Source: the human T2T-CHM13v2.0 reference genome, Homo sapiens
Assembly (NCBI RefSeq): GCF_009914755.1
Contig: NC_060928.1
DNA: 64,000 bases
Reading direction: 5' to 3' (one strand)
Both the position numbers and the translations under genes were made by a program. How positions within the stretch are numbered: position 1 is the stretch's first letter; every line of letters begins with the position of its first letter. The notes under the pieces were generated by a model that worked only from the letters and a program-made list of their open reading frames with translations, had not been told where the DNA came from and searched no databases. Positions 790 to 63,420 of the stretch are shown here, one piece after another.

Positions 790-1640
790 CAAGGCTTTCT
801 GGGCTGAGGATGTTGAATGCATGCAATGGTCTTGGTCAATGCAGTTGGCTCCTCAGGAAAAACTGGTGTTTTTCAGAGGCCTTTTTGGGTCAGCTACCAG
901 CCTCTTCATTGCTTTCGGGCAGTTCTTGTGTATCTTGCTAAGATCTAGGAATGGGGGGATACCCCCAGCCTGTCAAGAAGATAATCTGGTCGGGGTTGTT
1001 GATGTGGGAGAAAGGAAGTGCCCCTCCCATCAGCTCATAAAATGAGATGCCATAGGCATTGACATGGGACTGGAAGCTGAGTGGGTTTTTACCCTTCGTT
1101 CAGATCGCCTCTGGGGCCATTGACTGTGGGTTTCCTTAATCTGCTGAGAATCACTTCGGTGTGACTTCACTGTTGCCAAACCAAAATGTCTCTAGTTCAC
1201 ACCATGAGGCCTTCATGGAGAAATATGTTGGATTTTATGTCTCTGTGGATGATCTTCTCTGCATGCCAACTAGTTCCTTCCCTGAGCTGTCTACCAGGCA
1301 ATGTCAATTAGCTGGAATGTCTGAAACTTGGTCTCCTGGACATGCAGGTAGCTGTAGAGGCTGCCTTCACAGCACTGGGTCACAATGCCAGGTTGTCCTG
1401 TGTCATGAACCCCAACAAGAGCAGAATGTCCACATGTCCTACACTGCTCAGGACAGCCACCTCATCTCTGAAGGCCTGGAACTGCTCTGGGGGTCAGGTT
1501 GACAACCTTGGAGGATCTTGACTGCATTGCCTCTGCCACTTAACCTGAAACAGTTCTGATAGAGCCTGACCTGATCTAAGCAGAGCGTGCCACTATATGG
1601 GCTTGTATTTCCCCAGAAGAACATGGATCTGTCCATGAGG
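790..1640 (-). pseudogene. Highly decayed Mx copy (GED end ~790-960, G-domain remnants ~1370-1500)
   Basis: Minus strand ttcctgaggagccaactgcattgaccaagacc resembles MX1 FLKERLARLTQA codons; GIVTQC at ~1375-1392 resembles GIVTRC. Confidence 0.5.
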
Positions 1641-2089
1641 TCTAACGTTTTTTTCTCCTGGATCCCAGAGCTCAGTGACTTTCCTTGTGTGCTGGCACAG
1701 GGGTTTGGGTTGTGGACCAGCTCACTGGGCTGAGGTGGCTGGAACCACTGGGGTAGGGCTGTGAAGGGAAGGCAGATTGACTGTGACTTGGTGTTGCATC
1801 CTCAATCATCCTCCTGTCCACAGGTGTGGTGATGCTGATCACGTGGACATGAAGCGTAGATGTTGACCCCTCTCTCTGGGAGAGGAAACCTTCAGAGGGG
1901 CTGAAGGAATTGAATATGAAAGCATGAGGTGTAGAATGTCTGTTGGGAGCTAACAGGCATCCAGGAAAGACTGTCACGTATGATACATTGTCAAAGAAGG
2001 TAGTGCTGGGACCTCACTGTAGCCAGTTTGGAAATGAATTGTCCGATATTACTCCAGCCCACGTGCCTAGTGAGTACTTTAGTGCTATA

Positions 2090-3480
2090 GTGCTCATGAA
2101 ACTTGTAGCCACGAGCATGATGCTGAAATCCACTTAGCAGGAATTTCTGATGTTACAAAAGGTAAACTTCAGGAGTGTCTTCTGAGCAAAGTTGTGTGTT
2201 GTAAGGGGAACATGACTCAGGAAATCTACCTGAAGCTCTTCCCCCATCAGGCAGCATCAGTATTCCAATATAAATGCCTTTTTACCCTCGTGTCCATTAA
2301 GTCTGAACACAGCACTGTGGTTGCAGCCTCTCACCTTGAGTGCTTTCACGAGGCAGCCACATGAGCTCCTTCTGCTTTGCACACTGACCACTGTTGTTTG
2401 CTTATTGGCAAGAAAACAGTGCTGCCTGCCTTAGAAGAATCTGAATTTGCTGTCGTCTGATGCCTGGTGCTGATAGATAAATGGTTGAACAATTGTAAGG
2501 CAGATGTAGCTAGAGCCATAAAACTCCAAGGCTTAGAATACAGAACCCTTGCTGCTTGTTCTTCAAGCTCCATGTGTGCTCCATTGACACTGTTGAAACT
2601 ATTAAACCTGAAGGAGCCAGGCTATACCAAGTGTCCTGTTGCCTGAGGGCAGCTTTTCCTCCATTCCTTCTCTCCACCATATTGGGGAGAAGGAGGCAGT
2701 TAGATTTGGTTCCAAGCCCAGAGGACAGGCCCCTAGGCAGCCCCAGTATCTCGGTACTGGAGCTCCCTGCCTCAGGGCGCAGGACCTAAGGCCCAGCCAA
2801 CTGACTTCCTGACCTTGAGCTTAGTGAAGAAACCTTCCTCATACTTTCCTGAGGCTAGAAGCTTCTGATCCTCACTCCTGTGATATCCACTGCCTCTTGC
2901 TTTTCATTGCCACGTGCCCCACTCTTCCATTACAGAGAAATGGGACTTGAAATTTTTTCTCCTATAGGTAGTTTTGTAAGGGATGCTTCTTGTCATTCTC
3001 TGAGCTGGTAAGAAGTATGTGTACCTTGTCTTACTTGGACGATTAATGTCCTATTTATGAAAGGACTTGGTTCTCTGCAGATATCACTTTATCACGATTT
3101 GAGGGAGCTTAGCCAGTGTCACACTGCTTCCTCTAGTGGAAGCAGGTGCCAATCACACTGGCCTGGGCTTTGCCTACTTCTGCCATTGTTTGATCACTGC
3201 CATCTGGGCCACTGATGGATACAAACTAGGTCACCTTTTGACCTTTGACAGACTCCTTATGGATGCATAAGGAGGTCGTTTTAAATCCAGAGATTAGGAT
3301 GGTCCAATGAGATTTGTCACCACCTATGTGTTCTGGTGGAGATTTTTACCCCAAGGGGGATTTCATAGCATGAGTACCATTGATGGTGGACATGGGTTAT
3401 CATGGTCTTTTCCTCTGGCTCCCACATCCATGGTTCTCAGACCTCAAGATTTCAGTCTTCTCTGTGGGGTCCCTTTTGAG
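2090..3480 (-). pseudogene. Decayed Mx copy, lineage II (G domain to GED)
   Basis: In order: GLRTMDVG (SLRALGVE), MAEVGKAQASVIG (EKEINKAQNAIAG), VTLAKLPQI (LTLIDLPGI), LEEQAARVLYS (LEEPAVDMLHT; ORF 2346..2573), SHVPL (SHIPL), HQKFL (KRKFL). Confidence 0.7.
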
Positions 3481-3589
3481 TGGTGAAAACCTAAGGTCAA
3501 GGACCTGGCAACATGTGAATGCTGTTGCCACTGGCAGTTCCGATATCTGGCAAGCATTTCCCTTCTGTCCTGATCATAGGTTGAGCTTC

Positions 3590-6099
3590 AGACATGGTTT
3601 CCAGAAGATTGACATAGGTTTATCCTCTTTAGGGAACATCCCTGCTTTTCCTTCCTGTGGTGAAATTGGTGAGTTGAGGGATTTGTCCAACTAGGAGAAC
3701 TCCTTGATACTTTATTATGCTGCAGAAGGATGGCGCATAGCCTTCTAGTTTCCTGACAATCACGGGACATGTGACTATGACAGATGTTGCATGTCATTGT
3801 AACTTTCATGAGTGGGTAGTTGCCATATGTGCTGCCCCCCCTTCTTTGAAAGCCATGGGTTCCATCTGAAATTGTTATACTTAATTCCTAAGTCCTGCTG
3901 GAGGAAAGATTTGTCTACAAATGAAAATAATATTTAACACTGCCTGTCATTGTGAGCATCTGAAGTTGCTTCAAGATTGACTCAGGAATTCAACACTGGA
4001 TATTTCTGATCTGTGTTAGTTCTCAGAAATTACGAAGTCCTGAACTTCAGAGAATTCTGGATCAATGTGTACATTCCAGTTAGTAGGGATGATGGATGAT
4101 ACTAATGGAAGTTATTTTAAAAATAACAGAACTATTGCATTGCCTTCTGCAAGCCTTATTGACTTCTGGAGTCAGACCTACTGTGGCATCAGCAAGTCCC
4201 ATTGCTTGTTTCTCATAAGTTAGAAAGATGAGCTGTTCCAGTGGCAGAGTCTCTGAACCACATGTCCATGATCATGGATGTATCCTGAATCAAAATGCCT
4301 GAGCATCTTTTTTTTCCATAGTGCACTTGACTACTAAAATGAGAGGAATGAGTGACGAACACATCAGCCCCTTGTTCCTCCACATATTAGCCTCCCCTTT
4401 TCTGTGCTTTTGGGTGTAGGAACTTTCTTCCTTATCTTCAAGCTATTTTTAACCCATTTATCTCATATTTTAATAAGTACCATATCTTAAGCTGAATGCT
4501 TTCATGGATATTTTGACTTCATGTTCTTGTTCTGGCCACCATCTGCTGCTTTGTCTTCGAAGTTATCAACTGTCTTGAACTTAATTTCCTTCTTGCTCTA
4601 TAAGTTTAGTTTTCTGAAAATGACTGTGTACCTTAGGTGATTACCTTATCCTGTGAGTTCTTGTAGTGGCTTTCTTGCCTGAACTTATAAACTGATAGAG
4701 GGGCTTTATTGAGAAACAGTTGTTTTTTTAAACTGGCTGAAGTGACCTCCATCCGTGTTGAAGGTCATTATGTACTGAACCTGGATATCCTCTGAAGCTG
4801 TGACATCTGTTGTTCCAATTGCCCTGAGGATGCTAAGACCTAAATGCTAGGGGACAAGAGCTGGAACCCCACTTCTATACATCTTCATTGGATGGCTTAG
4901 GCACGACTAGAAATGAGATAGGCAGAGAGTGCTTCCATGGGCAACAGTGCACCTTCTGTGGGCAGACAGGTGGAGGCTGGAAACATGGGGCACAATGCTG
5001 AAACCATCATTCTGCAGTGGCACTGTCAGATGAGCTAACCTTTGGCCCAAACTTTGAGCCAGTGAAGAGTTCTAGGTGGAACACACAGCTGTTCTTTTCG
5101 TCTGGTCTCTAGCCTCTTTGTTTTTCTGGGAAGAAGGCTAAGAAGTCCTGGGGAATGGCTATGAGAAAATAAACCTTGGGCTAGTTTTGTGACCAACTTA
5201 CTGTTGGTCAGTAGAGTTGCCAGAAGGTGCAAACCCTTCCTCCTGCACTTAGGAACTACATGACAATCAGACCTCGCTGGCCAGCTGTGGAGCCCTGAGG
5301 ACTTGCATATCTGTTTGTCTTGAGAGTAAAGCTGGTGAGGATTCAATCATCAGACTTGGTGGGGCTACTTCATCCTCAGCAATGACTCCATCGTAGTTTA
5401 CACCTTTTAGGTGATAGAAAATTTCATACCACAGCAAAAGCAGATTGTCTTCAGTACCTTTGTCTACCAGATGAGTCTGTCAATGTGACTAATGCTACAT
5501 GTGTCAGGGTCTACCTCCTGAGAAGTGGTTAATGCCTCTGTAGCAGCAGGCTGATTGCCCATAAACCACTCAGGTTGTTGTATTAAGGTGGCCTGTTAGG
5601 TGTGTGGGGATCTGATGTGCACATTCATCAGCTCATGACTATCTCCTACCAATTCCTGGTGATGACATTCTGGGCTTTATTGACTTGCTTTCTACTTCCA
5701 AAGCATCTGACATCTCATGTTTAAAGTCCTGGTGAGTGACCTTGCTTCTCTGCTCATATCTGTGTACAAGTTTTTTCAGTTCCAACACCAGCAGACATTG
5801 TGTGACAAGACCATGCATCCTGGAAGAGCCACTCTCCCCATAGCTTTCAGAATGGGGCTCTTGCATGAGATCTGGTCTTTGACGGTGAAAGTGGGGAAGG
5901 TCACATTTTTATGCCTGGAGTCTATGGGGATTCGATGAGGTCAGTGCAGGCATGTACCTTCTCTACCTCCTGGCTCTACAGGCGGTTCTTCATTTCAGTG
6001 TCCCCATTGTTCTCAGCCTTATTGTCATCTCCATTTGGTAGTAGAAGGTTGGTTAGAAAAGGTGAATCACCTTTTGAGATTCCCTTCTGGATGAACTAT
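3590..6099 (-). pseudogene. MX1: MX1-derived processed pseudogene, lineage I (5' part 5395-6099 well preserved)
   Basis: LLLPNGDDNKAENNGDTEMKNRL (MX1 [23 protein letters not shown]); ORF 5639..5866 GLVTQCLLVLELKKLVHRYEQRSKVTHQDFKHEMSDALEVE ([41 protein letters not shown]); KGTEDN..FYHLKG; LATLLTNSKLVTKLAQGL (LAEKLTSELITHICKSL). No introns; many stops and frameshifts; start codon decayed to ATA. Confidence 0.9.
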
Positions 6100-7089
6100 C
6101 CTCTAGTAAATCTGGTGAGAAGGCAACCTGTAAACTGAGTTGGCTTAGTTCCCAGGAATGGGCCTGTGAAGACTGATGCACATGGTTTGTCCCTCCAACT
6201 CCTTGTTAATGTCTTATCTGCTGATGCTGGCCACTGCCTGGAATGTCTTCAGAACCCAGAGTGAATCTCTCCTGCCTGGCTGGGATGTGGTTGTGTTGTA
6301 GTGGGTCCTGTCTGTACACGGGTTCTGGTGTGTTTAATCATGCTTCTGGCCCTGTTGAATTGGTAAACCCCAGAGTAGGGAAATAACTTGGGCACTCTGC
6401 TAGGTGCCCCAGTGAATGAATCTTTCTGTCCCTTTGGACTGTTCAGAACATGGACTAAAGTCTTAGTACACCTTGTAATGTGTGGGTATTTCCACGTAGT
6501 GACAGATTAAATCTGCTCTGGGAACTTCCCTGAAAACTTGCACAGTGCCATGGCTTAGAAAATTCCCCTAACGATGAGAAGAATGTTTCCAGAATGAATA
6601 GTAATCACCCCAGACTTCATGATAGGACATTATTACCATAAGTACCCAAAAAGAAGAGATGCTTCTAGCTCCATAGTCAACAAGGCAGCTTCTCTGGGCA
6701 GCAGGTGCTCAATCTGAGGGGCATGATTCTAAAATCCTTTCCATCCCCTTGTTGTCTGAATGTTTGGTCTGCCTGGTCCCTCCAGGGTAAAAGCCACATG
6801 AACCAGAGCTGTGACATGGAAGCAGCTGCTGGTCTTGCTTCCCAGGTCTTAGCCTTTCAGATTTGTACTGGCAGATGCCTTCTGGTGGAGGTGGTCAGAA
6901 ACCAGAACAATGGCTGCCACTAGGGGGGAGGGTTGAGGAGGTTCAGAGCCGTCTGTGGAAAGGCTTGACTTGGGGGTATGTGCAGGTGAGAAATGTCCTG
7001 CCTCTTGCATCTGTGCTGACCACAGCTCATGAGAGGCAGGGACTTCGTGGTCCCCTGTGAACTGTGAGGCAGCATCACTGGCCTGGAAT

Positions 7090-8350
7090 GAGGATGTTGC
7101 AAATGCTTCTAGTGGCCTGAGTCAGTGCAATGGGCTCTTCAGGGAAGATGAAAATTGTGAGTTTTCCCATCTTTGTTGGCTGGAATGATTTGGATGTGAT
7201 TGTATTTCTACCTTTTGGTGGATAGAACCAAGTAAACAGTCTTCTGGGCCCAGAGAATACCTTGTAGATTTCAGTTGTACACTTAGTTCCTAAAGCCTTC
7301 ACTTGTGTACTCGGCAGTTCTGTGGAGGTTATAGTCAAAGCATTTTCTGAAATCTGAGAAGGAGCCAGACCATGTCATCTATGTGCTTCATGACAACTGA
7401 CTCTTCCAGTGTTTTGCTTTGCTGTTCTATGATAGTCTTGAATATCCTGTGATTCCTAAGTCCTGACAACTTTCATAACATTAATCCTCAAATTCCTATA
7501 TTTTTCTACAAAAAAACCTTTGATCTTCCTAAACGTTTTCAATCACAGCACTCCATTTGCAGAACCCATTATAGAGATTGCTAGACAGATGGTATTTTCT
7601 CCACTAAGGTTTCCTCCCCTTGCACTAAAGCCAACATGTCCTGATCACATGTACTAACTTATCCTAGAGAAGGTTTCTAGGATAAAGCATTAAGTCACTC
7701 TTCCAAAAACACGGTCCATTATCCCCATCAAGGAGTTCACTGTGGGAGCAGACTGCTGCTGGCCTCAGAACGTTGCTGGTCCTGTTTCCTCCATTCATGT
7801 AGCATCTGGGGACTAATGAAAGTGCTCTGTTCTGGATCATCCCATAAACCCATCATTGAGGTCTCAGGCTAAACTGTCCATTTTCTGGCTCTTACCTTTG
7901 GCTGTTGCTGAGCAACTAGGGTAGGTGAGCACCCAAAGTGGTGGTGTACCAACTATACCTCTTAAAGCATGAGCTGCTCTTGAGACTTCATTTCTCACTC
8001 CATTTTCAGATTATTCAAGGAGCCCTTTCTTGTGGCCTAAACCACTCCTACAATGACAAGTTAGCACTAGTGATTAATCATTAGCTGCTTTCTCACTTTT
8101 CCACCACTTGCTGTTACTGAAGTGCTTCGGTGACATTACCATTGTCTTGCTGGGGTCTTCCACGAAATAGGACTTAGGGATGTGTATGACTTAGCTATTC
8201 TGTTTGTGGAATCTTTCTTCAGACACAGCTCATGATAAGCACTTTCCTTTTCCATGTTCTTATGAGTAAAATGAGAGGATAATTCTTTGCAGAACAGTAT
8301 TCTGAATGAGACCAGTATCTCCTTCACGTTGGCATAACAATCCCATCCTG
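7090..8350 (-). pseudogene. MX1: Decayed Mx copy, lineage V (stalk 7240-7680 clear)
   Basis: DQDMLALVQGEETLVE (NQDITALMQGEETVGE), FCKWSAVIEN (FHKWSTIIEN), IFKTIIEQQSKTLEES (TFETIVKQQIKALEEP), NLHRTA, and EEPIALTQATRSIC at the C-terminus (ORF 7075..7338). Confidence 0.85.
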
Positions 8351-8979
8351 AATCTCCAGCTGAGAACTTGACAACTGGAAAGTGCTAATAAGACAAATAG
8401 CAAACATGAGCAATAGTCAAGTTCTTGAGGCTTAAATCCTTACCTCTGCCTGTTACCGGGATTACTATGTAAAATCTTTTGAGGCCACCATTAACCTCTA
8501 ACAATTAAATAAGAAACACTTTGCTCCTAAGTCTATTGGTAAATTTTCCCAGAGTGAGGCTCTGTCTGAGCTGGCGGTTGAGGCATGCTCAGCTTGGGAC
8601 AGGAGCCCATGTACCTGCTTTGTTTCCTCCTAGGCACAAAGCAGCTGTAGCTGCAGCCCTAGGGCCTTGGCAGTTTCCCACTGTCCATTTAGTGTAGACA
8701 TTGGAAGTGGGGGCATTGTTCAAATAAAGGGTTATAAGTGATACTGACAAAATGTTCTTGGCATATACTGTATGACAACACTGGCTGGAATCTTATCATT
8801 TGGCCATTGAAGGGTTGGGCCTTAACTGTATCTCTTTTGAAAAGGTTTGTGTTAGAATTTGCCAGATATGGCCTGCACCACTGCTGGGTGCCACCTCGCA
8901 GAACTGCTGCATAAATCATGCCCTGCTCCATTCTCCCCTCACCTGCCACCCATCAGCTGTAGGCCAATGCAATTTTCCC

Positions 8980-10130
8980 TTTGCACTTCAAGTTGTACGT
9001 GAGATGTCCAAGGGCGTAGCAACATTATGAGGATTGTGTGCATCCACTCAAAACACGATAGATGCACATCTGTTTTCTGCTTGGATTTGTCTGGCTGCCT
9101 TTAGTTAACCTTTCTAGTGCAGTTTGCTCCAGGAGAAGACTGGAGTTGTCCACGCTGAAGAGGGATGGCAGAGAGGAACTCGAATTCCTGCAACTTGGGG
9201 ATGGATGAGTCTTCATGATTCAACCTGAAAGCTGATTGCCTTGTGGTCAGTACACTGGGGACAGAAGTTCTGCTTTGGGTTGTGAGGTAGAGCCTTGAGT
9301 GGCATTTCATCTTCAGGATCTTGGCCTTGACTCTGCTGCTATGACTGGTCAACATGTTTTGACACTCAGGTTGGAAAGTGAATGCTCCCTTGTAGGGAAC
9401 CCTGTACACGTTATAGTTCATGTCAGTGTATAGATGTTATCCTCTAGTTCGAAAGACAACCATGAATTTCTACCAAAACCGTATTTTAAAGCATGATTCC
9501 CAAGTGGGACTAGTTTATCTCTCCCTTATCTTAGATTTTTGGAGGACCTCCCTCTTTGACCCAAACTTGTCAGTTAGGAGTCAGCACTCAGGATGAGGCT
9601 TACATTTTCTTTCCTATTTTGATGTAGTTGCTTACTCATGCCACACTACAGGCTCCCTGTAGTGTGCTACTGGAATGGCCTTGGCACGCGACATGTGTCT
9701 TATGAGAATCCCCCACTAACTATGACATGGAGAATTTTATGCAGGTAGTCCAGGCTGCTGGCCCTAAGAGACAGACATTCTTAGAACTTTCTTCTAAGAG
9801 TTGATGATAGCACCACCCACCCCAGCGTCACCCAGGCCAGGGCTAGTTCTAGTGGAAGCTGCTGCCAAGTATGCTTGGCTTTGGCTTTGCCCACTTCTGT
9901 GGCTTGATAATTCCATGATCTGGGACACTGCTGGATATGACCCAGGTCATTGAGTCTTGCTTGCCCAGTGTATTTGTTGCTTGTGAGTCCATATGGGGGA
10001 TCATATAAAAGCCAGAGTTTGGGATGATACAGATGAGGTTTCTCATCACCAGATAGTTCTGGTGGACCTGTTCAATCTTACCTAGGGAAGACATATTGGA
10101 TGTGGATCATATGGGCATTATTGACTGGGG
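8980..10130 (-). pseudogene. Decayed Mx copy (lineage II G-domain piece plus lineage VI stalk/GED)
   Basis: ORF 9101..9421: VKAKILKMK..SRLYL..DSSIPKL..LSAIPL versus AKSKIEDIR..IRLHF..DSSMEEI..ISSHIPL; LLTDKF versus FLIDKV. Confidence 0.6.
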
Positions 10131-10164
10131 CCCTGGGTCACCATCAGGGATTTGACAGAAAGAG

Positions 10165-10292
10165 CATAAGGACAAATAACTAACGCCTGTGGGGCCCAAC
10201 ACCTACGCGACGGGTGGATAGGTGCATCAGACTACCATGGCACACATTCACCCATGGAACAAACCTGCATGTCCTGCACATGTATCCCAGAA
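10165..10292 (+). mobile_element. L1PA (about L1PA8-13) 3' UTR fragment
   Basis: ataggtgcatcagactaccatggcacac...aacaaacctgcatgtcctgcacatgtatcccagaact is the L1PA 3' end. Confidence 0.75.
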
Positions 10293-14490: not shown

Positions 14491-14649
14491 AGGGACACTT
14501 CTAAGCCTGGGATTGGGATGGTCTTTTGCTTGTTCCCACACAGCATGAAAATGCTTTAATAGAGGTTATAATACATAGCAAGAATAGCAAGTGCACACGC
14601 AGACATCATAGAACACACTGTAGGTGAATAAAGAATTGATACTCATCAT

Positions 14650-48951: not shown

Positions 48952-48953
48952 CT

Positions 48954-51380: not shown

Positions 51381-51529
51381 TTCAGCCTTATGTGCCACAG
51401 GCTCCCTTGGCTGTGAAAGGCTGAGCTTAAGAACTCAGTGACGTCCATGGTGTGTGCAGAGCTGACCCTCTGGTAGATGGTACAGACAATGGACAAGGCA
51501 AGTGTTTTCCCTTCTACTCTGACCTTAGA

Positions 51530-54149: not shown

Positions 54150-55830
54150 CCAACCAAAAAGGAATTCACTGTGGGAGCAGATTCCCATTGGTCTCTACAG
54201 AACATAGCTAGTCCTGTTTCCTCTATTCAGCATCTGGGGAGTCATGCCGCCTTGTTTTGGATTATCCCAAAAACCCATCAGTGGGGCCTCAGAGTTTTAA
54301 ACTCTGTATATTTCTGGGCTCTTGCCATTGGCTGTGGCTTGGCAGCTAGTTAGGTGAGCACCCAAGCTGATGGTGTACCAACTACAGCTCTTTTCATAGC
54401 GTGAACCTCTCCTGAGGCTTTAAAAATTTGCTGTCCTAACTATCACAAGGACAAACAAACACTGCATGTTCTCACTCACAGGTGGGAACTGAACAATGAG
54501 AACACTTGGACACAGGAAGGGGAACATCACACACCGGGGCCTGTTGTGGGGTGGGGGGAGGGATAGCATTAGGAGATATACCTAATGTAAATGCTGAGTT
54601 AATGCGTGCAGCACACCAACATGGCACATGTATACATATGTAACAAACCTGCACATTGTGCACATGTACCCTAGAACTTAAAGTATAAAAAAAGCAAAAA
54701 AAGTATGCTGTCCTCTGCCGTTTTATATTGTTAAAGGAGCACCTCACAGAGACCTTCATTTCCAAAGACAAATGTGCACTAATGATCAAGAACATTTTCT
54801 TACACTGATATACCTGGTCCCTCTCAATTTTCACTCTGCCTGGTCTTGACCATAATATGTTGGTGATATCCTTGTCATAGTAGGGTCCTCCACTAATAAG
54901 ACATGAGAATCTTACGCTTTTAGCCTCTGGTGATCTGTTGGTTTCTGGAATCTTTCTTGGTCTTACCTAGATTATGATGAACCTTCTCACTCCCCTCATC
55001 TTCTATGAATATAACGTAGACACAGGGAGAGTAAACAGTCTTTTTGAAAAGTATTTGCGAAGAGACCAATTTCCTCTAAGCACCATGATCCCACATGGTC
55101 AGATAAATGAGGGTTATGTGTCGCCTCATAAATTCTCATAGCAGTTGCCGTTTGTTCCACAGTGGGATTTCTGCTTTGGCTGCTTTTAGCCAACCTGCCT
55201 TGAGAATCCTGACCTAGGAGAAGACTGGAGGTTGCTGGTCTGTGGAGAGGGCCTCAGAGGAGCCTGTTTTCTCAAGTTTTCTTGCATGGGCACATGAGTC
55301 TTCATACGTCAACTTGAATAAAGCTAATTGCCCTGCTAGCTCTGTATGTAACTAAGTTCTATCTGCACTAGGGTTCTGAGGTGTGTTAAGTGACCTTGGA
55401 CAAACAATCTTATTGCTTCATTCTCCTGATAGTGATGAGCCAACTTGATATTTTGGAACACTTGGGAGGAATGTTAATTCTTCTGTGTTATAGAACCCTT
55501 TACATTTCCTCATGCCATCTTGTAGAGGTCCTACTCAAGTTTGAAACATTATACATGGAATAGCCATCTTCGAAGCATGACTCTGCATTGGAACTTGAGT
55601 CTGCCCTCGTTCCTTTTCTTAGGTTTTTGAAGGAGAACCTCACTTTTGAGTTCACTCATACATTTTAGCACTAACGATAAACCATATGTTTGGCTTATGT
55701 TTGGAGGTCATTTTTCTCTTATCCCTGATTATACCCTGCCTGTTCCCTATTGAAATGACCCTGGCATCATTACTGAGGCCTCATGAAAATCTTCCTCTGA
55801 ATAGGACTGGAGAATTTTGTGTATATAGTC
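54150..55830 (-). pseudogene. Decayed Mx pieces, lineage V G domain (54150-55090) and lineage VI stalk (55150-55830)
   Basis: Colinear with 7730-9800 and 19350-22010 (ttcactgtgggagcaga, aggtgagcaccc, gagaccaat, gagtcttcat). Confidence 0.55.
54438..54702 (+). mobile_element. L1PA (about L1PA4-5) 3' fragment with poly(A)
   Basis: catgttctcactcacaggtgggaactgaacaatgagaac...ctagaacttaaagtataaaaaaa; imperfect TSD aaaa(at/gt)(t/a)tgctgtcct at ~54423-54437 and ~54699-54714. Confidence 0.93.
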
Positions 55831-57970
55831 CACATTCTTGGCCATAAAGAGCTCTTGGTCAACTTTCCTGTCGGCCTGCTCCAGAAGAAAAATGTGGAGG
55901 CACCTTATCTATAGAGGGGGACATGGAAAATGAGGTCTATGCCTGCAAATAACTTCTCCAGGGTCACCTTAATTTTTCATGAGTCAACTTCATATGAATT
56001 GATGTTCTTGCTGTTCATTAGCTGGGATCAGGCAAATATGTTGTGACTATGGCATTTGAGAAATGTGACATTGATACATCAAGATCTTGCCCTTTAAAAG
56101 GAGATGGCCTTCCCTTTTATTTTCCTGAGCTCCTCATTAACACTGAAACCAAGCGTGTGAACTCTTGTGTGAATGCATGGCAGTGGGAAAGCAGGAGTGT
56201 AGCTTGCATGTTCTTGCTGGTGCATTGCTGGTACACTTTCTCTAAGAGGTATTGCATTGGCTATAACATCTCAGAAATACCCTCCCATTTAGGAGTCTCA
56301 CCTACCTTTGTGTAGGGAGAAGATAGTTCTGAAGGTAGAACAAGGGTGTTCATAACCACTAGCTCAGAGACCTGTTTATGGGTAAGTCTACCTTGGTCCC
56401 TCTAGAGCACCAATTCTCACGTGCCCAGTATGCATGGTCTTCAGCCACCTGCCACGCTGGTATGGAAGATGGTCAGCATTAGCCTATGGGTTTCCATATC
56501 TGGGAGAAGATGTGTGCTTAGACAGGTAGAGAGGTTTGTCTTCTTCCTTCCTTTCTTTGGATCTCCATTACAGTCTCAATATGTCCTTTACCTACATATT
56601 ACCTGACTGCCCTGATCAAGACATTTCTTGATGCATACTTGATTTTCTATATCTCCTCCTCTTGTCCCAAAAATGAAACGATCCTAGGACAAAAATTCAA
56701 TACAGGCTTGAAAAGCAAATTGATCTTCCGGAGCAGAAATCCTGCTGTGTCATCCCACTATTGCTTGGTGTGAACAAGCCTGAGTTCGCTCAGCCTTTCT
56801 TTGCCTTAAGTACCGGAAGCTGAAAAACATCTCAGTATTATGCCTTCAGTTGACACACCTGTACATGGAGAGACACATCTTCCATTGTCTGTGGTTAATC
56901 TAGGTATTCTTACCACCATCAGTAGTAGAGAAGTAAAGAACAGTGAAGTAAAACTTTGGGATTGTGTGGATGATGCCCAGGACTGAGACTGGAATGTGTT
57001 CCCACTGAGACTGGAAAGATAGTGCAGATGAGCACTTTGGGTATGGCAGGATCATTTGAAAGAACCAGTTAAGCATGTTTATAACACAAACATAAACTTA
57101 CTAGTTAGAAATCGTCAAGGATTTCTAGTGTGTTCAGATTCTATTGTCTAGGGCTTATGTTAGATTTTATAGGCTGAGATCTTGTTCTCTAACTGGAAGG
57201 CAGCATCTGCCTCTTTCCACTTGAACTCTGGCAGGAGGTTTGTTCCATTGCATGTGGTTCTGAGTTGTTCAGTCTAATGGAAGAAGCACTAGAGAAGAGC
57301 TCAGAACGTTTGGTTTTAAAGCAGCATCGTCAATATCTTTGAGTCCAACAGTCAAATTCAAATATACTCCAAGAATGTTACGAAGTTGTCGTCGGGAAGC
57401 ATGGCAAACTGATACAGTGAAAAGAGAAATTCTTGAGTCAGGTGTTGATCACTTTAAATCTCAGGTAAGAGGCATTCACCTGAGGAGTACTGGAAATTCT
57501 CTCACCTGCAGAGGCTTGCTAGGTTTGTGCTTGTTTCCATGTGAAGAGCCATAAGTTATAACCCTCCTCATACCGTGTGTGGAGACATGCCAGGCTCAGA
57601 TCAACACATACCTATGTAGGGATGGGATGAGCAGGAAGATCTAAGTTGGAAGCATCAGAAAACTTATGGGGTCAGGAGAAGTGTGGGTTTGTATGCTACT
57701 CTGTGGAATCTCAATCCTCTGTCCTCCAAAGGGTTTCTAATTCTCATTGTCTTGTGGTCTTTGTGTGATTGCCATTATCTTTCACACCAGTGGTGTGGAA
57801 AAGTGGTCAATGTTAGCCTGAGTCTCCCTATCTGAGCTGGTTTGGTTCTCATTCCTTTGATTCCCCAAGATAGTCCCAATGCCTCCTTTTAACCAAATAT
57901 TCACTGACTACTCTGACCACGAGATCTTTAGATGTGTATCTGCCTTTTATATATTTCCTTATATTGCCCC

Positions 57971-58347
57971 TGATACAGTTTGGATATCCCTTCCAAATCT
58001 CATGTTGATATAATCCCACTGTTGGACAGTAGGGCCTGGTAGGAGGTGTTTGGGTCATGGAAGTGGGTCCCTCATGACTTGGTGCTGTCCTCACCATAGT
58101 TCTCATGACAGCTAGTCATTCGAGTATGTGGCACCTCCCCCTTGCCTTTCTTCTGCTTGTACCATATGACTTGCAAGCTTCCCCTGTGTCTTCCACTGTA
58201 AGTAAAATCTTCCTGAGGCCTGTCCAGAAGCAGATACCAGCGCTATTATTGCCATACATCCTGTAGAACCGTGAGACAGTTAAATCTCTTTTCTTATAAA
58301 TTACCAAGTTTAGGTATTTATAGCAATGCAAGATATGGCCTGACACC
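57971..58347 (+). mobile_element. MaLR solo LTR, MST type (MSTA/MSTB-like)
   Basis: tgatacagtttggatat...aaatctcatgttga...gggcctggtaggaggtgtttgggtcatgg...tagcaatgcaaga; flanks gcccc / acccc. Confidence 0.9.
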
Positions 58348-59695
58348 ACCCCTAAAATGATATTCTGAGACAAAAATTCACTATAAGCTTAAATCTTGCA
58401 GAGCAGAAACCCTAATTCTTGGTTATCCCACAGTTGCTTGGTGGGAACATGTCTGATCTCCTCTCAGCCTTTCTTTGCAAGCATCAGAGTTTGGAAAACA
58501 ATCTCAACTATGCCTATATGTCACACACTTGTGCATGTAGACACACATCTCTAACTGTCTTGGTGGCTGATCTAGGCATTCTGACCACCACCTCTACAGA
58601 AGTAAAGAACAGTGAAGGAAGAATCTGGGATGGTGTGGATGATGTCCAGGACTGAGACTGAAGTACGTGTTTAACTGAGATTGCTCATTTGCAGTATCTT
58701 CCCAATCAGGTTGTGTGGGCTCATTTGGAAAAACCAGTTTACCATGTTCATAACACCAATGTTGTAACTGAGAACACAAATCCTCCTTGTGGACTTCTAA
58801 GTAGCAAGTGTTAATCTCTATGGCTTATGTTGGATTTTTAAGGCTGACACTTGATCGCTAACTGGAAGGCTGTATTTCCTTTATTCCTCTCAAGCTCTGG
58901 AAGGAGATCTGTTCCATTGCATGTGGTTCCGAGTTGTCTTGCGGTTCAAGCACTAAGGAGCACAGAGCATTTGGTTTTACAGTGGCATCATGGGTATTTT
59001 TGAGGCCCAAACTCAACATGCTTGGAGTATGTTTGAATTCAAGTTGCTGGCCTAAAATATCACCTATAGGAAGCATGGCAAATTGATACCATGGAAAAGG
59101 ATCATTCCTGCCTCAGGTTGACCACTTAAATTTCAGGTATGAGACATTCACCTAAGGGGTGTCACCTGGGCATTGTCTTGGAGGCCACAGCAGCCTTCCA
59201 TGAAAACTCCTACAGAGGCTTGGTAGGTTTGTGCTTGTTTCCACCTGAAGAGCTATAACTTTTATAACACTCCTCATGTGTTGTGGAGACATGCCAAGCC
59301 CAGATTAACAATACCTAGGTAGGGATGGGATGAACAGGAAGATCTGGGTTGGAATTATGAGCAAATTAAGGGGTTAGGAGATGAAGTGAGGCTTTGTGTG
59401 CTGCTCCATGGAAGCTGAAGCCTCTGTAGTTTAAAGGGTTTCTCATTCTCCCTCCCTCCTGTGGTCTTTGAGGGATTGCCATTGCCTGCCATGCTAGTGG
59501 CATAGAAAGTGGTCAATATTAGTCTGTGAGTCTCCCTATCTGATAGGACTCTTAACCACGTGGGGAGAGGTGTCTCACTCTCATTCCTTTGATTCTCCAT
59601 GGTAGTCCCAGTGCCTCCTTTCAACTAAATATTCACTGACAACTCTGACAAATCTTGAGATGCATATTTGCTTTTTATATTTCCCTATATCGCCC

Positions 59696-60080
59696 TGATA
59701 CAGTTTGGATATCCCCACCAAATCTCAAGTTGAGATGTAATCTTCGATGTTGGATGATGGGGCCTGGTGGGTGGTATTTGGGTCATGGAAGTGGATCCCT
59801 CATGGCTTGGTGCTGTCCTCCCCATTGTGAGCTCTCACAAGATGCAGTCATTGAAAAGTGTGTGGTACCTCCCCCTTGCCTTTCTTTTGCTTTTGCCATG
59901 TGACATGCAAGCTCCCCCTTTGCCTCCATAAGCATAAGCTTCCTGAGGCCTCCCAGAAGCAGATGCCAGTGCTGTGCTTCCCTAACAGCCTGCAGAACCA
60001 TCAGATGATTAAACCTCTTTTCTTAAGAATTACCCAGTCTTAGGTATGTCTTCATAGCAATGTAAGAATGGCCTGATACA
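59696..60080 (+). mobile_element. MaLR solo LTR, MST type, duplicate of 57971-58347
   Basis: Same termini at the same position of the 1.7 kb unit; flanks cgccc / gccct. Confidence 0.9.
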
Positions 60081-62094
60081 GCCCTTATAATAATAATCTG
60101 GGACAAAAATCTAATAAAAGCGTAAATAATCTTGTAGAGCAGAAATTCTAATGCTGTTATCCCACAGTTGCTTGGTGGGAACACGTTTGATTCCTCTCGA
60201 CCTTTCTTTGCCGTAAGTGCTAGAGTCTGAAGAAAAAAATCTCTTATGTCTGCATTTCACACACTTGTGCATATTGGAGACACATCTCCAGCTGTCTTGG
60301 TGGTTAATTCTTACCATCTCTTGTAGTGGGGGAGGTGGAGGACAGCAGTGAAGCCACGAGAGTTTGCGGTGGTGTGGATGATACCCAGGACTGACACTGA
60401 AATGTGTGTTTGAATAACTGAGATCGCTCATCTGCCAGGCCTTTCCAGGGTCAGTTCATGGGCTCATTTGGAAAAACCAACTTACCATGTTAATGCCAAC
60501 ATAACTGACAACACACTAGAAATCCTTCTTGTGGATTACTAGTAAGTTTTATTCTCTGGGGATTATATTGGATTTTATAGGCAGAGACTTGATCTCTAAC
60601 TAGAAGACTGCATTTGTCTTTTTCCACTTGAGCTCTGGAAGGAGATTTGCTGCATTTCATGTGATTCTGAGTTCAGTCTTGTGGAAGAAACACTAGAGAA
60701 GAGCGTAGAGCATTTGGTTTTAAAGGAGCAGCATCAATATCTTTGAGTTCAAACCTCAAATTCAAGTATACTCCAAGAATGTTAAGTTGCTGGCCTAAAA
60801 TGTCACCTGTAGGAAGCATGACAAACCAACACCATGGAAAAGGATCATTCTTCACTTTTGTTGGCCATTTTAATCTCAGGTAAGAGGTATTCACCCAAGG
60901 ACTGTTATCTGGTCATTGTCTTGGTGGCCACAGTGGCCTTTGGCAATTCTCATCTTAACTGCAGAGAATTGCTAGCTTCTGTGTTTGCTTTCACCTAAGG
61001 ACTCATTACTTGGAACATAGGCCCCACACTGTGGAGATATGCCAAGCCCAGATCACCACATATATATAGGTAGTGATGGGGATGAGCAGGAAGATCCAGG
61101 TAGAAAGGAGTTTTTGGTATGCCAAGTGGAACCTGAAATAATTCGATCAAACATAAGTTTCTAGATCTTTCAAAGCTGTGTGCTGAGGGAGATGAACTGG
61201 TAATGGGAAGTTGAGGTGCTTTCTTCTGATTCTTGAGTGTGCTGAGCTTCATATTATGGCTATTTAAGAACTAACTGAAGTGTCTAGAGATGGAGTCAGG
61301 CTTGGAAGGCTGCTCTGTGCAAACGCAACCCTCTGTACTCCAGAGGATTTCTAATTAGATTCCATCTCCTTTTTATGTGCATGATCTCAGAGGCTCCAGC
61401 TTATTCCTGATCCATAAGTGATCAGAAATTCTCTACCTGCTGTAGAGCTTGTTTTTAACTTGTAAAATATGCAAACCAAAACATTTCATCTGCTCTTGGG
61501 TGGTGGCCAACATGGCAGGGTCTTTTTGGTGAATGAATGGGTGTGTGCAGACCTATCTCTGGGTTCCTACCTGTATTCGAAAGGATGCATGATCCTGCGT
61601 GGCTGGCACCATCCATCAGGGACAATAGGCTTTCAGGGGTAGGCACTGCTGAGGGACAATGCTTGAAAATGGACATGACCTTTCCTTCACAGCTCTTGGC
61701 TCATGGTTGTGATACTGGGCACTGCCTGCATCTCTGAGAAAAAAGTTTCTCCAGCTTGATCCTGTACGATGGGGCCTTTTGGCGCCATATTTGGTTAGGT
61801 TTTTAGGTCTATTCTCAGTTCCCTTTTCAGGCCTTTTTCAATTGATGATTCTCAGAGTCGGAGAGATGGTTTGGACAGCTTATCAGGATCTGAGCAAATA
61901 GCATGAGTGAGGCTGCTTCTGTGTCTTACCCAGAGATTTGCTTCTAATCCCAACGTTCCAGTGGAATGTGGTCTCTCCCATAACAGTTGAAATTCTTTGA
62001 CCACTTTTCGTTGGAAATTTTTGAACAATGTGCATTTCTTTGAATTGAAGTTCTTTAGTATAAAAGGGGAGACGGTGATGGCCTGGGGTGCTTT

Positions 62095-62377
62095 TTCTTA
62101 TACATTTAAGGGGTACAGTGCAATTTTGTTACTGGTATAGTGATAACCTGTGCTTCTAGGGTATCCATCTCCCTAGTAATGTGCATAGTATCCATTAGTT
62201 TTTCATGATCCACTCCCATTACCCCTTGACCCATCACCCATGACCCTTCTGAGTCTCCAATGTCTGTAATTGCACACCCTATGTCCATATGTACACATTA
62301 TGTAGCTCCCATTTACAAGCGAGAACAGGTATTTGACTTGCTGTTTCTCAGTTGTTTCACTTAAGATAATGGCCTCC
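62095..62377 (-). mobile_element. Old L1MA-type 3' fragment
   Basis: ccttctgagtctccaatgtct...tgtacacatt..tagctcccatttacaagcgagaac...gttgtttcacttaagataatggcctcc. Confidence 0.75.
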
Positions 62378-62654
62378 TAGAGTGCTCTTGCTGGGAGGTT
62401 TTAATTTTGTATTCATTTGGTTCCCTGGGCCACCTGTATATCTTACACCTACTTCCTGCGATTTCAGACAATCTTGATAAGAACATTGAAAAAATGGATT
62501 AATTGAATGGAGTTCATAATATGCACTTCCCCTAGAGACTGTAAAACAAGTCCCACCTTTATTCTTGATAGAAATAATTGGGCATTTTCAAATGGATGAA
62601 TCATGCCAGTAGAAGAATAGTTAAGATTCTTATCTGAAGTGAGACCCAAGTATC

Positions 62655-62890
62655 TGCATATGGATATCCTAAATTCAGATCCTGAGACCTATGTTTGAGG
62701 TAGAAAGGCTTGTGAAAGTGACTCCAGGAAACATGGAGGAGTAATGAAGACAGGGTAGGAAGAGCAGCCAGACCTGGGAGAGCATTGAAGAGGTCACCTC
62801 TATGCTGTGTGCAACTCAGTCTCCCTGGGAATCCTCTAAAAACCCACATGGAAAATGATGTCCCAGAATCTCATTCCTAGGATTGCCTAC
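62655..62890. mobile_element. Possible old ERVL LTR fragment (LTR33/LTR16-like)
   Basis: cagatcctgagac...gtgactccaggaaaca...gacagggtaggaagagcagcca resembles my recall of these LTRs. Confidence 0.4.
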
Positions 62891-62899
62891 CACATCCAA

Positions 62900-63420
62900 C
62901 CTACATCTTTAAGGGTAGTATTCTTTTTGTACTGCAGACGTGTACCTTGGTGCTTGAGGCTGATGTGCCTTGGGTGATTTTAGAGAGCCAGTACAGTGAG
63001 AATTTTGATAGACTCAGCAGTTCTACCTGAAGCATGATATATATTTTGGCAACTAAACTATCCTGCTTCAATAACGAGTGGTAACCCACGTTGGGATCTT
63101 ATTAGGGCCAGGTGAGGCTTGGGGCTAAGAGCCAGCCTGATGGCACCTCCTCAGGGTCCTGCTGAGTGTTGCCCACCATCCAGTGAGCAGCTCTACACTG
63201 GCAGGTGCTTCTGAGGTTTCATCCTGAATGTTCTCATTCTTCCAGGCTGCTTCATCTATGCAGGATAATTCCACAGCCTGGGGCCAGGAATCTAGCACCG
63301 ATCCAGAGACTGAGTCCACTGTAAGGATAACTCACTGCAAGCTGCCGGTGCTGTGAGGCCTGTACCTAACCCCAGCCTCTAACCTTCAGCTTCATTTGGG
63401 CTGGAAGTGGCCATTTGTGG
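62900..63420 (-). pseudogene. Very decayed Mx G domain (separate lineage)
   Basis: LGLGTGLTAPA (LGVEQDLALPA), DSVSGSVLDS (DQSSGKSSVLEA), WKNENIQDETSEAPASVE ([21 protein letters not shown]), KQDSLV, ITQGT, in order. Confidence 0.5.

What the first reader, a model, noticed from the sequence alone, without database searches (positions are those of the whole stretch)
790..63420. Hidden tandem array of about 20-25 intronless Mx (MX1) antiviral GTPase copies makes up the window
Seen: the apparently anonymous repeat translates on the minus strand, unit after unit, into Mx motifs in the right order (N-terminus, GDQS P-loop, GIVTRC, DLPG, TKPD, LTSELITH, ELPGFVNY, LEEPAV, AKSKIED, YHQE/SSHIP, LQKAMLQLLQDK). 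Every unit has the same orientation, with about 2-2.5 kb spacing once transposons are removed. Established: primates have two intron-containing Mx genes (MX1, MX2), and processed pseudogenes are normally single and dispersed. Inference: one MX1 retrocopy was amplified in tandem into a large cluster that runs off both ends of the window. It is either an extinct intronless Mx gene family (birth-and-death, as in GBP/IRG clusters) or a non-coding macro-array built from an immune gene. I know of no description of such an array but cannot check the literature.
Basis: partly seen in the sequence, partly recalled or inferred. Interest (0 to 1): 0.95.

Follow-up and report, generated by a model that had tools for sequence, protein, structure and literature searches.

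The report
Decayed MX1 pseudogene fragments in old repeat
This stretch of human chromosome 4 is an old, badly decayed block of same-direction repeats that carries seven broken, intron-free pieces of the antiviral gene MX1 rather than 20-25 hidden copies, so it is a pseudogene graveyard and not a lost gene family.

Summary
The minus strand holds intronless MX1-derived sequence with the motifs in the right order. The scale is wrong.

A frameshift-aware alignment of human MX1 to both strands gives exactly 7 significant segments, scoring 186-584. Noise tops out at 63 on the same strand and 62 in the controls. The 7 segments total 4,934 bp, or 7.7% of the window. Three of them are the annotated MX1 pseudogenes. 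Two more fragments lie 5 and 16 kb to the left, and none within 100 kb to the right.

Nucleotide profiles of the Mx pieces find no further copies. Consensus sequences of 11 other repeat-block families score like shuffled sequence.

The window is nonetheless repetitive. 77.6% of it has same-orientation self-homology at about 65% identity. It belongs to a repeat zone of about 230 kb (chr4 10.14-10.37 Mb) with no fixed period.

MX1 pieces sit in 6 window units as passengers and share breakpoints, so one retrocopy was probably co-amplified after it was already broken. RAF1P1 and a HERV-K-like provirus are later insertions.

Unexplained: strong Alu depletion, and three retro-derived pieces abutting the same edge of one block.

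The parts
5405..6109 (-). Mx fragment c1: MX1 residues 8-272 (G domain), followed downstream by a Y-like block. Not in the annotation table.
   Evidence: DP score 355, 47% aa identity. nhmmer matches 5 consecutive MX1 exons. Its ORF 5642-5908 hits 7 of 7 PDB chains named MX1 and no MX2 chain.
7143..7669 (-). Mx fragment c2: MX1 residues 375-567 (stalk), joined at 7143/7146 to block Y1. Not annotated.
   Evidence: DP score 195. nhmmer to MX1 exons at C21:39834680-39834830 and 39837822-39838000.
18950..19461 (-). Mx fragment c3: MX1 residues 317-510, followed by block Y1. Not annotated.
   Evidence: DP score 201. nhmmer to 3 MX1 exons.
30918..31683 (-). Mx fragment c4: MX1 residues 2-269, starting 4 nt before the ATG. 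This is annotated LOC100422637.
   Evidence: DP score 498, 54% aa identity. Six MX1 exons are contiguous here.
35288..36334 (-). Mx fragment c5: MX1 residues about 430/444-661 plus about 450 nt of MX1 3'UTR with an AATAAA signal. Not annotated.
   Evidence: DP score 186. nhmmer 35288-35936 matches C21:39847203-39847892, E 5e-41. Sequence of the 3' end printed.
38088..39414 (-). Mx fragment c6: residues 42-296 at 38088-38819. An unrelated stretch of about 440 bp lies at 38812-39254. Residues about 8-50 lie at 39256-39414. Partly annotated as LOC100422638.
   Evidence: DP score 382. The G-family profile hits 38161-38820 and 39256-39413. 38812-39254 has no self-homology.
40419..41584 (-). Mx fragment c7: MX1 residues 146-586, the longest piece. 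Both ends fall on MX1 exon boundaries. This is annotated LOC100422639.
   Evidence: DP score 584, 49% aa identity, 5 stops and 13 frame shifts by my count of the printed alignment. ORF 40553-40846 hits 4 of 4 PDB chains named MX1 at E about 1e-14. Exon ends.
852..2843 (-). RAF1P1 body: a single-copy processed RAF1 pseudogene. Homology to RAF1 stops at, or within about 11 nt of, the donor site of the penultimate exon (window 852).
   Evidence: Exon-by-exon hits to C3:12583693-12617552 at 75-87% identity. Overall 81% identity, K2P 0.223. No self-homology across 872-2843. Junction. RAF1's last exon and 3'UTR are absent from 264 kb.
1..871 (.). Block Y1, copy 1 of 4 full copies. The others are at 6320-7149, 17959-18810 and 25861-26730. 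Shorter Y-like copies are at 4910-5360, 15892-16469, 24320-24678, 30447-30836, 37766-38102, 50138-50250, 52656-53285 and 63643-63994.
   Evidence: nhmmer and profile search. Pairwise identity 60-71%, K2P 0.37-0.59. No match elsewhere in the genome and none to RAF1's last exon.
42491..49447 (-). HERV-K-like provirus, a later insertion. LTR pair at 42491-42931 and 48941-49447, 83% identical.
   Evidence: Pfam hits on minus-strand ORFs: dUTPase, RVP, G-patch, RVT_1, RNase_H/Integrase_Zn/rve, IN_DBD_C and HERV-K_env_2. LTR pair. The interior has no self-homology.
32197..32890 (.). Young L1 3'-end fragment flanked by a direct repeat (gaaactgttcttt...). Related pieces at 54436-54706, 23981-24218 and 10161-10294.
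   Evidence: Sequence read; the L1 identity is recognised from memory. Self-hits at 86.5%.
1..64000 (.). Part of a same-orientation, roughly 65%-identical repeat zone spanning chr4 about 10.14-10.37 Mb.
   Evidence: Eleven block families gave 149 plus-strand hits against 10 minus-strand hits over 264 kb.

Best explanation
The window is a slice of an old, non-coding, same-orientation segmental repeat at 4p16.1. The repeat zone is about 230 kb, its units average about 65% identity, and unit lengths are irregular (roughly 7-16 kb).

One processed MX1 retrocopy landed in a unit of this repeat. It was interrupted and truncated, and was then copied along with its host unit by local DNA duplication. 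Further deletions and neutral decay followed.

What remains is 7 dead fragments in 6 units of the window, plus 2 more to the left. Later, a processed RAF1 copy (RAF1P1), a HERV-K-like provirus and a few L1 pieces were inserted.

Shown: the identity, strand, intronless state, number and extent of the Mx pieces; the extent and orientation of the repeat zone; the shared breakpoints.

Inferred: a single founding retrocopy; its age (roughly 70-130 Myr, on or near the euarchontan/primate stem); absence of present function.
For: Number and strand of the Mx pieces:
- Seven minus-strand hits scored 186-584 against noise of at most 63. The same 7 appeared with a shrew Mx1.
- The whole-genome search found MX1-like DNA only on chr21 (MX1 and MX2), in the dynamin genes, and at this chr4 locus.

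Processed origin from MX1:
- Only MX1 exons match, they are contiguous, and c5 carries the 3'UTR.
- The two informative ORFs hit PDB chains named MX1 only, 4 of 4 and 7 of 7, with no MX2 chain at E<=0.01.

Co-amplification after damage:
- c1 and c4 lose nucleotide homology to MX1 at the same point in the exon for residues 244-310 (C21:39830480-484); c6 shares the downstream junction.
- c4 and c6 share the upstream block 'flank5'. c2 and c3 share the Mx|Y1 junction.
- Copy-to-copy K2P is 0.51-0.71, about twice what each copy would have accumulated given 0.33-0.40 to MX1 exons.

Mx as a passenger:
- 77.6% of the window is repeat but only 7.7% is Mx.
- Eleven block families recur from -34 kb to +133 kb, 149 of 159 hits in plus orientation.
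- No Mx lies to the right.
- Five right-hand units carry the flank5 block (at 53.2, 69.1, 85.7, 112.5 and 122.9 kb) with no detectable Mx. In the one unit examined at base level (53.2 kb), flank5 abuts a Y-like block directly.

No coding capacity:
- Each alignment shows stops and frame shifts.
- Of 243 ORFs of at least 65 aa, 1 hit Dynamin_M.

Age:
- The fragments nest inside eutherian Mx1.
- The 8 best-scoring of 35 reference Mx proteins are all primates, tree shrew or colugo.
Against: - A single founding insertion is inferred, not shown. No target-site duplications were sought, and c7 (residues 146-586) and c5 (residues 444-661 plus UTR) have junctions different from the other copies.
- The FastTree topology is weak. 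Support for the main chr4 cluster is 0.79 and for its sister position to primates 0.29. c1, and c5 with the left fragment, fall elsewhere. The fragment sequences were extracted by alignment to human MX1, which may bias them towards primates. IQ-TREE did not finish.
- The substitution load (about 0.27-0.3 per site per copy) looks older than the euarchontan placement, unless the local rate was high.
- 'No function' is not tested. The zone is about ten-fold poorer in an Alu motif than its right flank and shows a constant strand skew. Either could reflect constraint or transcription.
- Copies diverged beyond about 55% identity would escape all my tests.
Confidence: 0.78

Rival explanations
1. One reading: the whole window is 20-25 tandem MX1 retrocopies of about 2-2.5 kb, most of them too decayed to recognise individually.
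For: - The window is highly self-similar in one orientation.
- A deeper layer of Y-like blocks sometimes lies 1.8-2.3 kb apart.
- One block family (U) gave a borderline consensus score of 59 over residues 123-340.
Against: - The DP with human MX1 finds only 7 segments above a noise ceiling of about 63.
- Profile HMMs of the Mx families find 0 new copies.
- Eleven family consensuses score 29-59 against 596 and 328 for the positive controls. U is reached by 2 of 60 shuffles, which is not significant across 11 tests.
- No MX1 intron or UTR homology exists outside the 7 pieces.
- Self-hit offsets are not 2-2.5 kb.
- About 7 kb is a provirus and about 2 kb is RAF1P1.
Confidence: 0.04
2. Several independent MX1 retrocopies inserted repeatedly into this locus, which would be a retroposition hotspot, rather than one copy multiplied by DNA duplication.
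For: - Junction types differ: Mx ending at about residue 270 joined to Y2, Mx ending at residue 567 joined to Y1, Mx ending at residue 586 joined to block S/V, and a full 3'UTR joined to block U.
- RAF1P1 shows that the locus accepted another retrocopy.
- In the unit at 53.2 kb, flank5 adjoins a Y-like block directly, as an empty site would.
Against: - All 9 fragments share one strand.
- Groups of copies share breakpoints and both flanks.
- No other MX1 retrocopy exists elsewhere in the genome.
- Most fragments lack a 3' end, which primary L1-mediated insertions always carry.
Confidence: 0.1
3. The repeat zone is a functional non-coding locus, for example a germline lncRNA or piRNA precursor transcribed on the plus strand, antisense to the Mx and RAF1 pieces. 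Selection would keep Alu and L1 elements out.
For: - The Alu 24-mer motif gave 0 hits in the window and 6 in the 230-kb zone, against 8 in the adjacent 24 kb.
- G>C and T>A on the plus strand across about 250 kb, and CpG o/e of 0.12-0.18.
- Every gene-derived piece lies on the minus strand.
Against: - No expression, small-RNA or conservation data could be examined.
- The skew can be inherited from the composition of the repeated unit, and it extends beyond the left edge of the zone.
- A 7-kb provirus and L1 pieces did insert.
- At about 70% identity to MX1 exons, the pieces cannot guide sequence-specific silencing today.
- Rfam found 0 families.
Confidence: 0.07

Closest known systems
Processed pseudogenes multiplied by segmental duplication (duplicated-processed pseudogenes, as catalogued by GENCODE/RefSeq; here LOC100422637-9)
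   Same: Intronless and parent-derived. Dead on arrival or soon after. Copied together with flanking DNA, with shared breakpoints among copies.
   Different: This is unusually old and fragmented. It is embedded in a 230-kb irregular repeat zone. Only 3 of the 7 window fragments are annotated.
Retrogene-bearing macrosatellites such as D4Z4 (DUX4) and RS447 (USP17L) on chromosome 4 (recalled, not checked in a paper here)
   Same: A retro-derived gene copy carried inside a kb-scale, head-to-tail repeated unit.
   Different: Those arrays have uniform units, more than 95% identity through concerted evolution, and an ORF in each unit. Here units are irregular, about 65% identical, most lack the gene piece, and no ORF survives.
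Chimeric retrocopies formed by template switching or exon trapping (U6-L1 chimeras, SVA exon trapping; recalled)
   Same: A spliced gene part lacking its own 3' end is joined at a fixed point to another sequence. RAF1 stops at or within about 11 nt of an exon donor site, and c7 is exon-bounded.
   Different: The partner block Y is found only at this locus, not dispersed. Two of the three Y junctions fall inside MX1 exons.

Membership tests
MX1 processed pseudogene | Significant similarity to the MX1 coding sequence | tested here: met
   Seven segments with DP scores of 186-584 against noise of at most 63. 70-74% nucleotide identity to MX1 exons.
MX1 processed pseudogene | Exon junctions fused, with no intron sequence | tested here: met
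   c7 and c4 each match 6 MX1 exons contiguously. There were no intron matches at E<0.01.
MX1 processed pseudogene | Derived from MX1 rather than MX2 | tested here: met
   ORFs from c7 and c1 hit only chains named MX1 (4 of 4 and 7 of 7), with no MX2 chain at E<=0.01. No MX2 proteins were included in the tree.
MX1 processed pseudogene | 3'UTR, polyadenylation signal, poly(A) tail and target-site duplication | tested here: inconclusive
   c5 carries about 450 nt of 3'UTR and an AATAAA signal, followed only by an A/G-rich remnant. The other 6 pieces lack a 3' end. Target-site duplications were not sought.
MX1 processed pseudogene | Disabling mutations | tested here: met
   Stops and frame shifts appear in every alignment.
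   TRF found no long-period array, though its longest period is 500 bp. Self-hit offsets are broad, with peaks at 11, 14-17 and 25-26 kb. The only local period is 1.68 kb, at 56.7-61.1 kb.
   7.7% of the window is Mx. There were 0 extra copies by profile search and consensus scores stayed at noise level.
Functional intronless Mx gene family (birth-and-death) | At least one long open reading frame, or evidence that copies were intact when duplicated | tested here: not met
   The longest in-frame Mx ORF I identified is 98 aa. Copies share a truncation at about residue 270 and junctions with foreign blocks.
Ancient same-orientation segmental repeat | Most sequence has diverged paralogues nearby, in direct orientation | tested here: met
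   566 direct against 25 inverted tile hits, covering 77.6% of the window. 149 plus-strand against 10 minus-strand family hits over 264 kb.

The most novel reading that the evidence does not exclude
The 230-kb zone at chr4 10.14-10.37 Mb may not be inert. It could be a long-lived, Alu-resistant, strand-asymmetric locus. One block edge (the 'top' of block Y) would have repeatedly captured spliced cDNA pieces lacking their 3' ends. Three such pieces abut it: RAF1 up to the donor site of its penultimate exon, MX1 to residue 567, and MX1 to about residue 270. This would point to a capture mechanism (splicing into, or template switching onto, a locus transcript) or to a germline antisense-transcribed pseudogene trap.
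Probability: 0.08. Interest if true: 0.7.

Novelty: new member of a known kind. Interest (0 to 1): 0.3.

Why it matters
The result removes a tempting but wrong reading. There is no hidden family of 20-25 antiviral Mx genes in the human genome.

It also adds four unannotated MX1 pseudogene fragments in the window and two outside it. It shows that RAF1P1 lacks RAF1's last exon and ends at or within about 11 nt of a splice donor. It delimits a roughly 230-kb ancient repeat zone between WDR1 and ZNF518B that is strongly depleted of Alu elements.

If that depletion and the recurrent junction at block Y turn out to reflect constraint or a capture mechanism, the locus would be worth a closer look. 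As it stands, it is ordinary genomic debris with an unusual architecture.

Tried and rejected
- **Pfam on read-through translations.** For the 3 annotated pseudogenes, only 1 of 9 frames hit Dynamin_M, so this was too insensitive.
- **The search for homologous proteins with window ORFs** found nothing for the Mx ORF or the RAF1P1 ORF. No RAF1 protein reference was obtained, so RAF1 was studied at the DNA level from the genome instead.
- **Block Y as RAF1's C-terminus plus 3'UTR.** I first thought so from recalled sequence. I rejected the idea because neither the four Y1 copies nor the 12-copy Y profile gave any match to RAF1's last exon or 3'UTR beyond one junk 10-nt hit at E 8. The last exon is present in the fetched chr3 stretch, and it has no homologue anywhere in the 264 kb. 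A 42-aa Y ORF hit nothing in the PDB.
- **Non-Mx blocks as retained MX1 introns.** Rejected: there are no intron matches.
- **RAF1P1 or Mx split by insertion of a Y element.** Only partly fits. A left-flank fragment starts at residue 566 where c2 ends at 567, but it lies about 280 bp from the nearest Y copy, and RAF1's remainder is absent.
- **Other searches with no result.** The c5 ORF 35687-35986 gave no PDB hit. Rfam gave 0 families. IQ-TREE timed out, so FastTree was used.
- **The hub's '2% masked' as a measure of transposon content.** Rejected: the 7-kb provirus is almost entirely unmasked.
Full report
**Setting.** The window is chr4:10,230,001-10,294,000 of T2T-CHM13. RefSeq annotates RAF1P1 and three 'MX1 pseudogenes' here (hub table). 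The genome is held as handle G000, so flanks and parent genes could be read.

**Is the window repetitive?** Yes, but not as a regular tandem array.
- Tandem Repeats Finder (periods up to 500 bp) reports only 5 trivial arrays.
- Sensitive self-blastn gives 144 direct and 9 inverted HSPs. Direct hits cover 66.5% of the window at 58-75% identity.
- nhmmer with 800-bp tiles gives 566 direct and 25 inverted hits, covering 77.6% against 3.0%.
- Self-hit offsets are 6.3, 7-8, 11.6-12.2 and 25.5 kb. The only short period is 1.68 kb, at 56.7-61.1 kb.
- Stretches without paralogues are 872-2843, 10298-10919, 19821-20395, 26877-27282, 32495-32925, 38812-39254, 42932-48940 and 62378-63638.

**How much is Mx?**
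- A 98-aa ORF (40553-40846, minus strand) matches human MX1 residues 444-514 in the PDB at E 1.6e-14. All 4 hits are MX1.
- Using that ORF I obtained a full-length Mx protein. From it I obtained 120 mammalian Mx1 proteins, including human MX1 (P0014).
- I wrote a frameshift-aware protein-to-DNA local aligner (BLOSUM62, gap open 11, gap extend 1, frameshift 8).
- Human MX1 against the minus strand scores 584, 498, 382, 355, 201, 195 and 186, then 63 and 54. Control maxima are 62 on the plus strand, and 55 and 51 for the reversed protein on the two strands. The shrew protein finds the same seven segments.

The seven segments, in human MX1 residues:

| Fragment | Window coordinates | MX1 residues |
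|---|---|---|
| c1 | 5405-6080 | 8-272 |
| c2 | 7143-7669 | 375-567 |
| c3 | 18950-19461 | 317-510 |
| c4 | 30922-31676 | 2-269 |
| c5 | 35726-36291 | 444-661 |
| c6 | 38088-38819 | 42-296 |
| c7 | 40419-41584 | 145-590 |

- They total 4,934 bp (7.7%). Amino-acid identity to MX1 is 42-54%, and every one carries stops and frame shifts.
- c4, c6 and c7 are the annotated loci. c1, c2, c3 and c5 are not in the table.

**Are more copies hidden?**
- Nucleotide profile HMMs built from the G-domain copies and from the stalk copies recover only their own members, plus 39256-39414 (the 5' end of c6). They find no new copies at E<=1e-3.
- I built majority consensuses for 11 non-Mx block families and aligned them to MX1. 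Minus-strand scores were 29-59. The two positive-control consensuses scored 596 and 328.
- Against 60 codon-block shuffles each, the five families tested lay inside the null. Counts of shuffles reaching the observed score were U 2, R 4, Xrest 28, Plow 29 and Pmid 60, each out of 60.

**Processed origin, and from MX1.**
- nhmmer of the window regions against the 31-kb MX1 gene matches exons only. Six consecutive exons are contiguous in c7 and in c4.
- c5 also matches about 450 nt of 3'UTR, up to C21:39847892 (window 35288). An AATAAA signal follows, but no clear poly(A) tract.
- ORFs from c7 and c1 hit only MX1 chains in the PDB (4 of 4 and 7 of 7) and no MX2 chain at E<=0.01.
- A genome-wide search with MX1 finds only MX1 and MX2 on chr21, the dynamin genes, and this chr4 locus. 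That search used a stricter first pass, so weak matches may be missed.

**Extent of the locus.**
- In 100 kb on each side, MX1 aligns significantly to two more minus-strand pieces on the left. These are chr4:10,214,174-10,214,621 (residues 2-155, score 254) and chr4:10,225,011-10,225,300 (residues 566-657, score 133).
- Nothing aligns on the right. The maximum there is 62, against 64 for the reversed protein.
- The old direct-repeat zone is much larger. In every 10-kb bin from 10.14 to 10.37 Mb, 41-96% of the sequence lies in direct self-hits below 78% identity, against 0-30% in inverted hits.
- Length-weighted mean identity is 65%, with no single period.
- Profiles of 11 block families seeded in the window hit 149 times in plus orientation and 10 times in minus orientation. 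The hits span -34 kb to +133 kb in window coordinates.
- None of 14 candidates for window 2880-10110 lies outside this locus.
- Elsewhere in the genome, only the following find matches:
  - an old dispersed repeat at 19818-20395;
  - four short pieces of about 100-160 bp (11786-11935, 13583-13690, 13926-14086, 14545-14642);
  - 10293-10927, which matches chr15:25,636,760-25,637,107.

**Architecture.**
- The Mx pieces are passengers inside larger units. c1 and c4 lose nucleotide homology to MX1 at the same point inside the exon for residues 244-310 (C21:39830480-484). c6 shares the same downstream junction with a Y-like block, although its DP alignment was carried on, unreliably, to residue 296.
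- c4 and c6 share the same upstream block, 'flank5'.
- c2 and c3 end at or before residue 567 and are followed by block Y1.
- c5 keeps the true 3' end. c7 runs from residue 146 to residue 586.
- In units D and E, a G-domain piece and a stalk or C-terminal piece lie in one unit, separated by 1.8-3.6 kb of Y2, Xrest and Q blocks. The copy was therefore interrupted before it was duplicated.
- Five units to the right carry flank5 with no detectable Mx. In the unit at 53.2 kb, flank5 abuts a Y-like block directly.

**RAF1P1.**
- Its body (872-2843) is single-copy. It matches RAF1 exons at 75-87% identity, with overall K2P 0.223.
- Homology to RAF1 stops at window 852. The window reads '...TTTTTCCTGAG' where RAF1 reads '...TTTTTCCCCAG|gtaagg', the donor site of the penultimate exon. 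The last about 11 nt are ambiguous, because block Y carries a similar pyrimidine run.
- RAF1's last exon and 3'UTR are present in the chr3 stretch I fetched. They have no homologue in Y1 or anywhere in the 264 kb.

**Age.**

| Comparison | K2P |
|---|---|
| Mx pieces to MX1 exons | 0.33-0.40 |
| G-domain copies to each other | 0.51-0.71 |
| Y1 copies to each other | 0.37-0.59 |
| RAF1P1 to RAF1 | 0.223 |

- A FastTree of 35 Mx proteins plus the nine fragments places all fragments inside eutherian Mx1. Six of the nine form a cluster (support 0.79) next to primates (support 0.29). The other three scatter with low support.
- Independently of any alignment to human, the eight best-scoring of 35 reference proteins (summed over the nine fragments) are Homo, Pongo, Nycticebus, Macaca, Tupaia, Saimiri, Eulemur and Cynocephalus.
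- I read this as retroposition on or near the euarchontan/primate stem, with duplication soon after. The substitution load looks somewhat older than that, so I quote 70-130 Myr. The neutral rates used for this range are recalled, not computed.

**Later insertions.**
- 42491-49447 is a HERV-K-like provirus on the minus strand. It has Pfam hits to dUTPase, protease, G-patch, RT, RNase H/integrase and HERV-K env. Its LTRs are 83% identical. I only observed it.
- 32197-32890 is a young L1 3' fragment with a flanking direct repeat (identity recalled from memory).
- Of 243 ORFs of at least 65 aa, the other Pfam hits were a KRAB box at 10319-10549, one Dynamin_M hit, and two weak hits that are probably chance.
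- The provirus is almost unmasked in NCBI's file, so the hub's '2% masked' does not measure transposon content.

**Unexplained.**
1. A conserved Alu 24-mer (recalled), allowing up to 3 mismatches, gives 0 hits in the window. It gives 6 hits in the 230-kb zone against 8 in the 24 kb just to the right.
2. G>C and T>A on the plus strand, with CpG o/e of 0.12-0.18, persist over about 250 kb.
3. Three retro-derived pieces that lack their own 3' ends all abut the same edge of block Y. They are RAF1 up to its penultimate exon's donor site, Mx to residue 567, and Mx to about residue 270. In addition, c7 is bounded by MX1 exon junctions at both ends (exon ends). Splicing-mediated capture or template switching is possible, but two of the three Y junctions lie inside exons, and Y is not a dispersed element.

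**Literature.**
- No paper held 'MX1 pseudogene' together with 'tandem', or Mx1 together with 'processed pseudogene' and 'chromosome 4'.
- In Mitchell et al. 2015 (PMC4687636) I saw only the matched passages. 'Chromosome 4' and 'processed' each occur 0 times, and the pseudogenes discussed are MxB genes at the chr21-syntenic locus.
- RAF1P1 appears in 3 papers in the search listing: two uric-acid GWAS and one paper unrelated to this locus.
- A review notes that C-Raf-2 is a pseudogene (PMC9101324, passage).
- I found no mention of this locus in one paper on retroelement-free regions (PMC2582637, term search). For the other papers I saw only the listing.

**Verdict.** This is a real but ordinary feature: decayed fragments of a processed MX1 pseudogene, multiplied as passengers of an old, irregular segmental repeat. 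It is not a 20-25-copy Mx array.

Noticed in passing
window 42491-49447: HERV-K-like provirus on the minus strand, with dUTPase, protease, G-patch, RT, RNase H/integrase and env remnants. LTRs at 42491-42931 and 48941-49447 are 83% identical. It is almost unmasked in NCBI's soft-mask.
   Followed up: partly
window 852-889 and chr3 locus L019 7651: RAF1P1 homology to RAF1 ends at, or within about 11 nt of, the donor site of RAF1's penultimate exon. RAF1's last exon and 3'UTR are absent from the whole 264 kb examined. This is odd for a processed pseudogene.
   Followed up: yes
window 10293-10927: Single-copy stretch with a KRAB-box hit (ORF 10319-10549 minus, E 4e-5). It matches chr15:25,636,760-25,637,107 at 73-87% identity and looks like a fragment of another gene or pseudogene.
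   Followed up: partly
chr4:10,140,001-10,370,000 (window -90 kb to +140 kb): Same-orientation repeat zone of about 230 kb at about 65% identity. The Alu motif is roughly ten-fold rarer than in the adjacent 24 kb. Plus-strand G>C and T>A skew is constant, and CpG o/e is 0.12-0.18.
   Followed up: partly
chr4:10,214,174-10,214,621 and 10,225,011-10,225,300 (left of the window): Two more MX1-derived minus-strand fragments, covering residues 2-155 and 566-657. The second starts where c2 ends (residue 567).
   Followed up: partly
window 19818-20395: Old dispersed repeat of about 580 bp, 70-76% identical to copies across the genome (2,180 first-look candidates for the whole 20-kb query, nearly all of the scored ones mapping here). 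It is inserted in one unit only.
   Followed up: no
window 56663-61358: Local sub-array with a 1.68-kb period at 72% identity, younger than the rest of the repeat. It is built from the block called Pmid.
   Followed up: no
proteins P0001, P0002: Two short predicted proteins in the public representative library are 93% and 86% identical to the c7 ORF. Some genome annotation has therefore called ORFs in an orthologous or identical copy. The source is unnamed and was not pursued.
   Followed up: no
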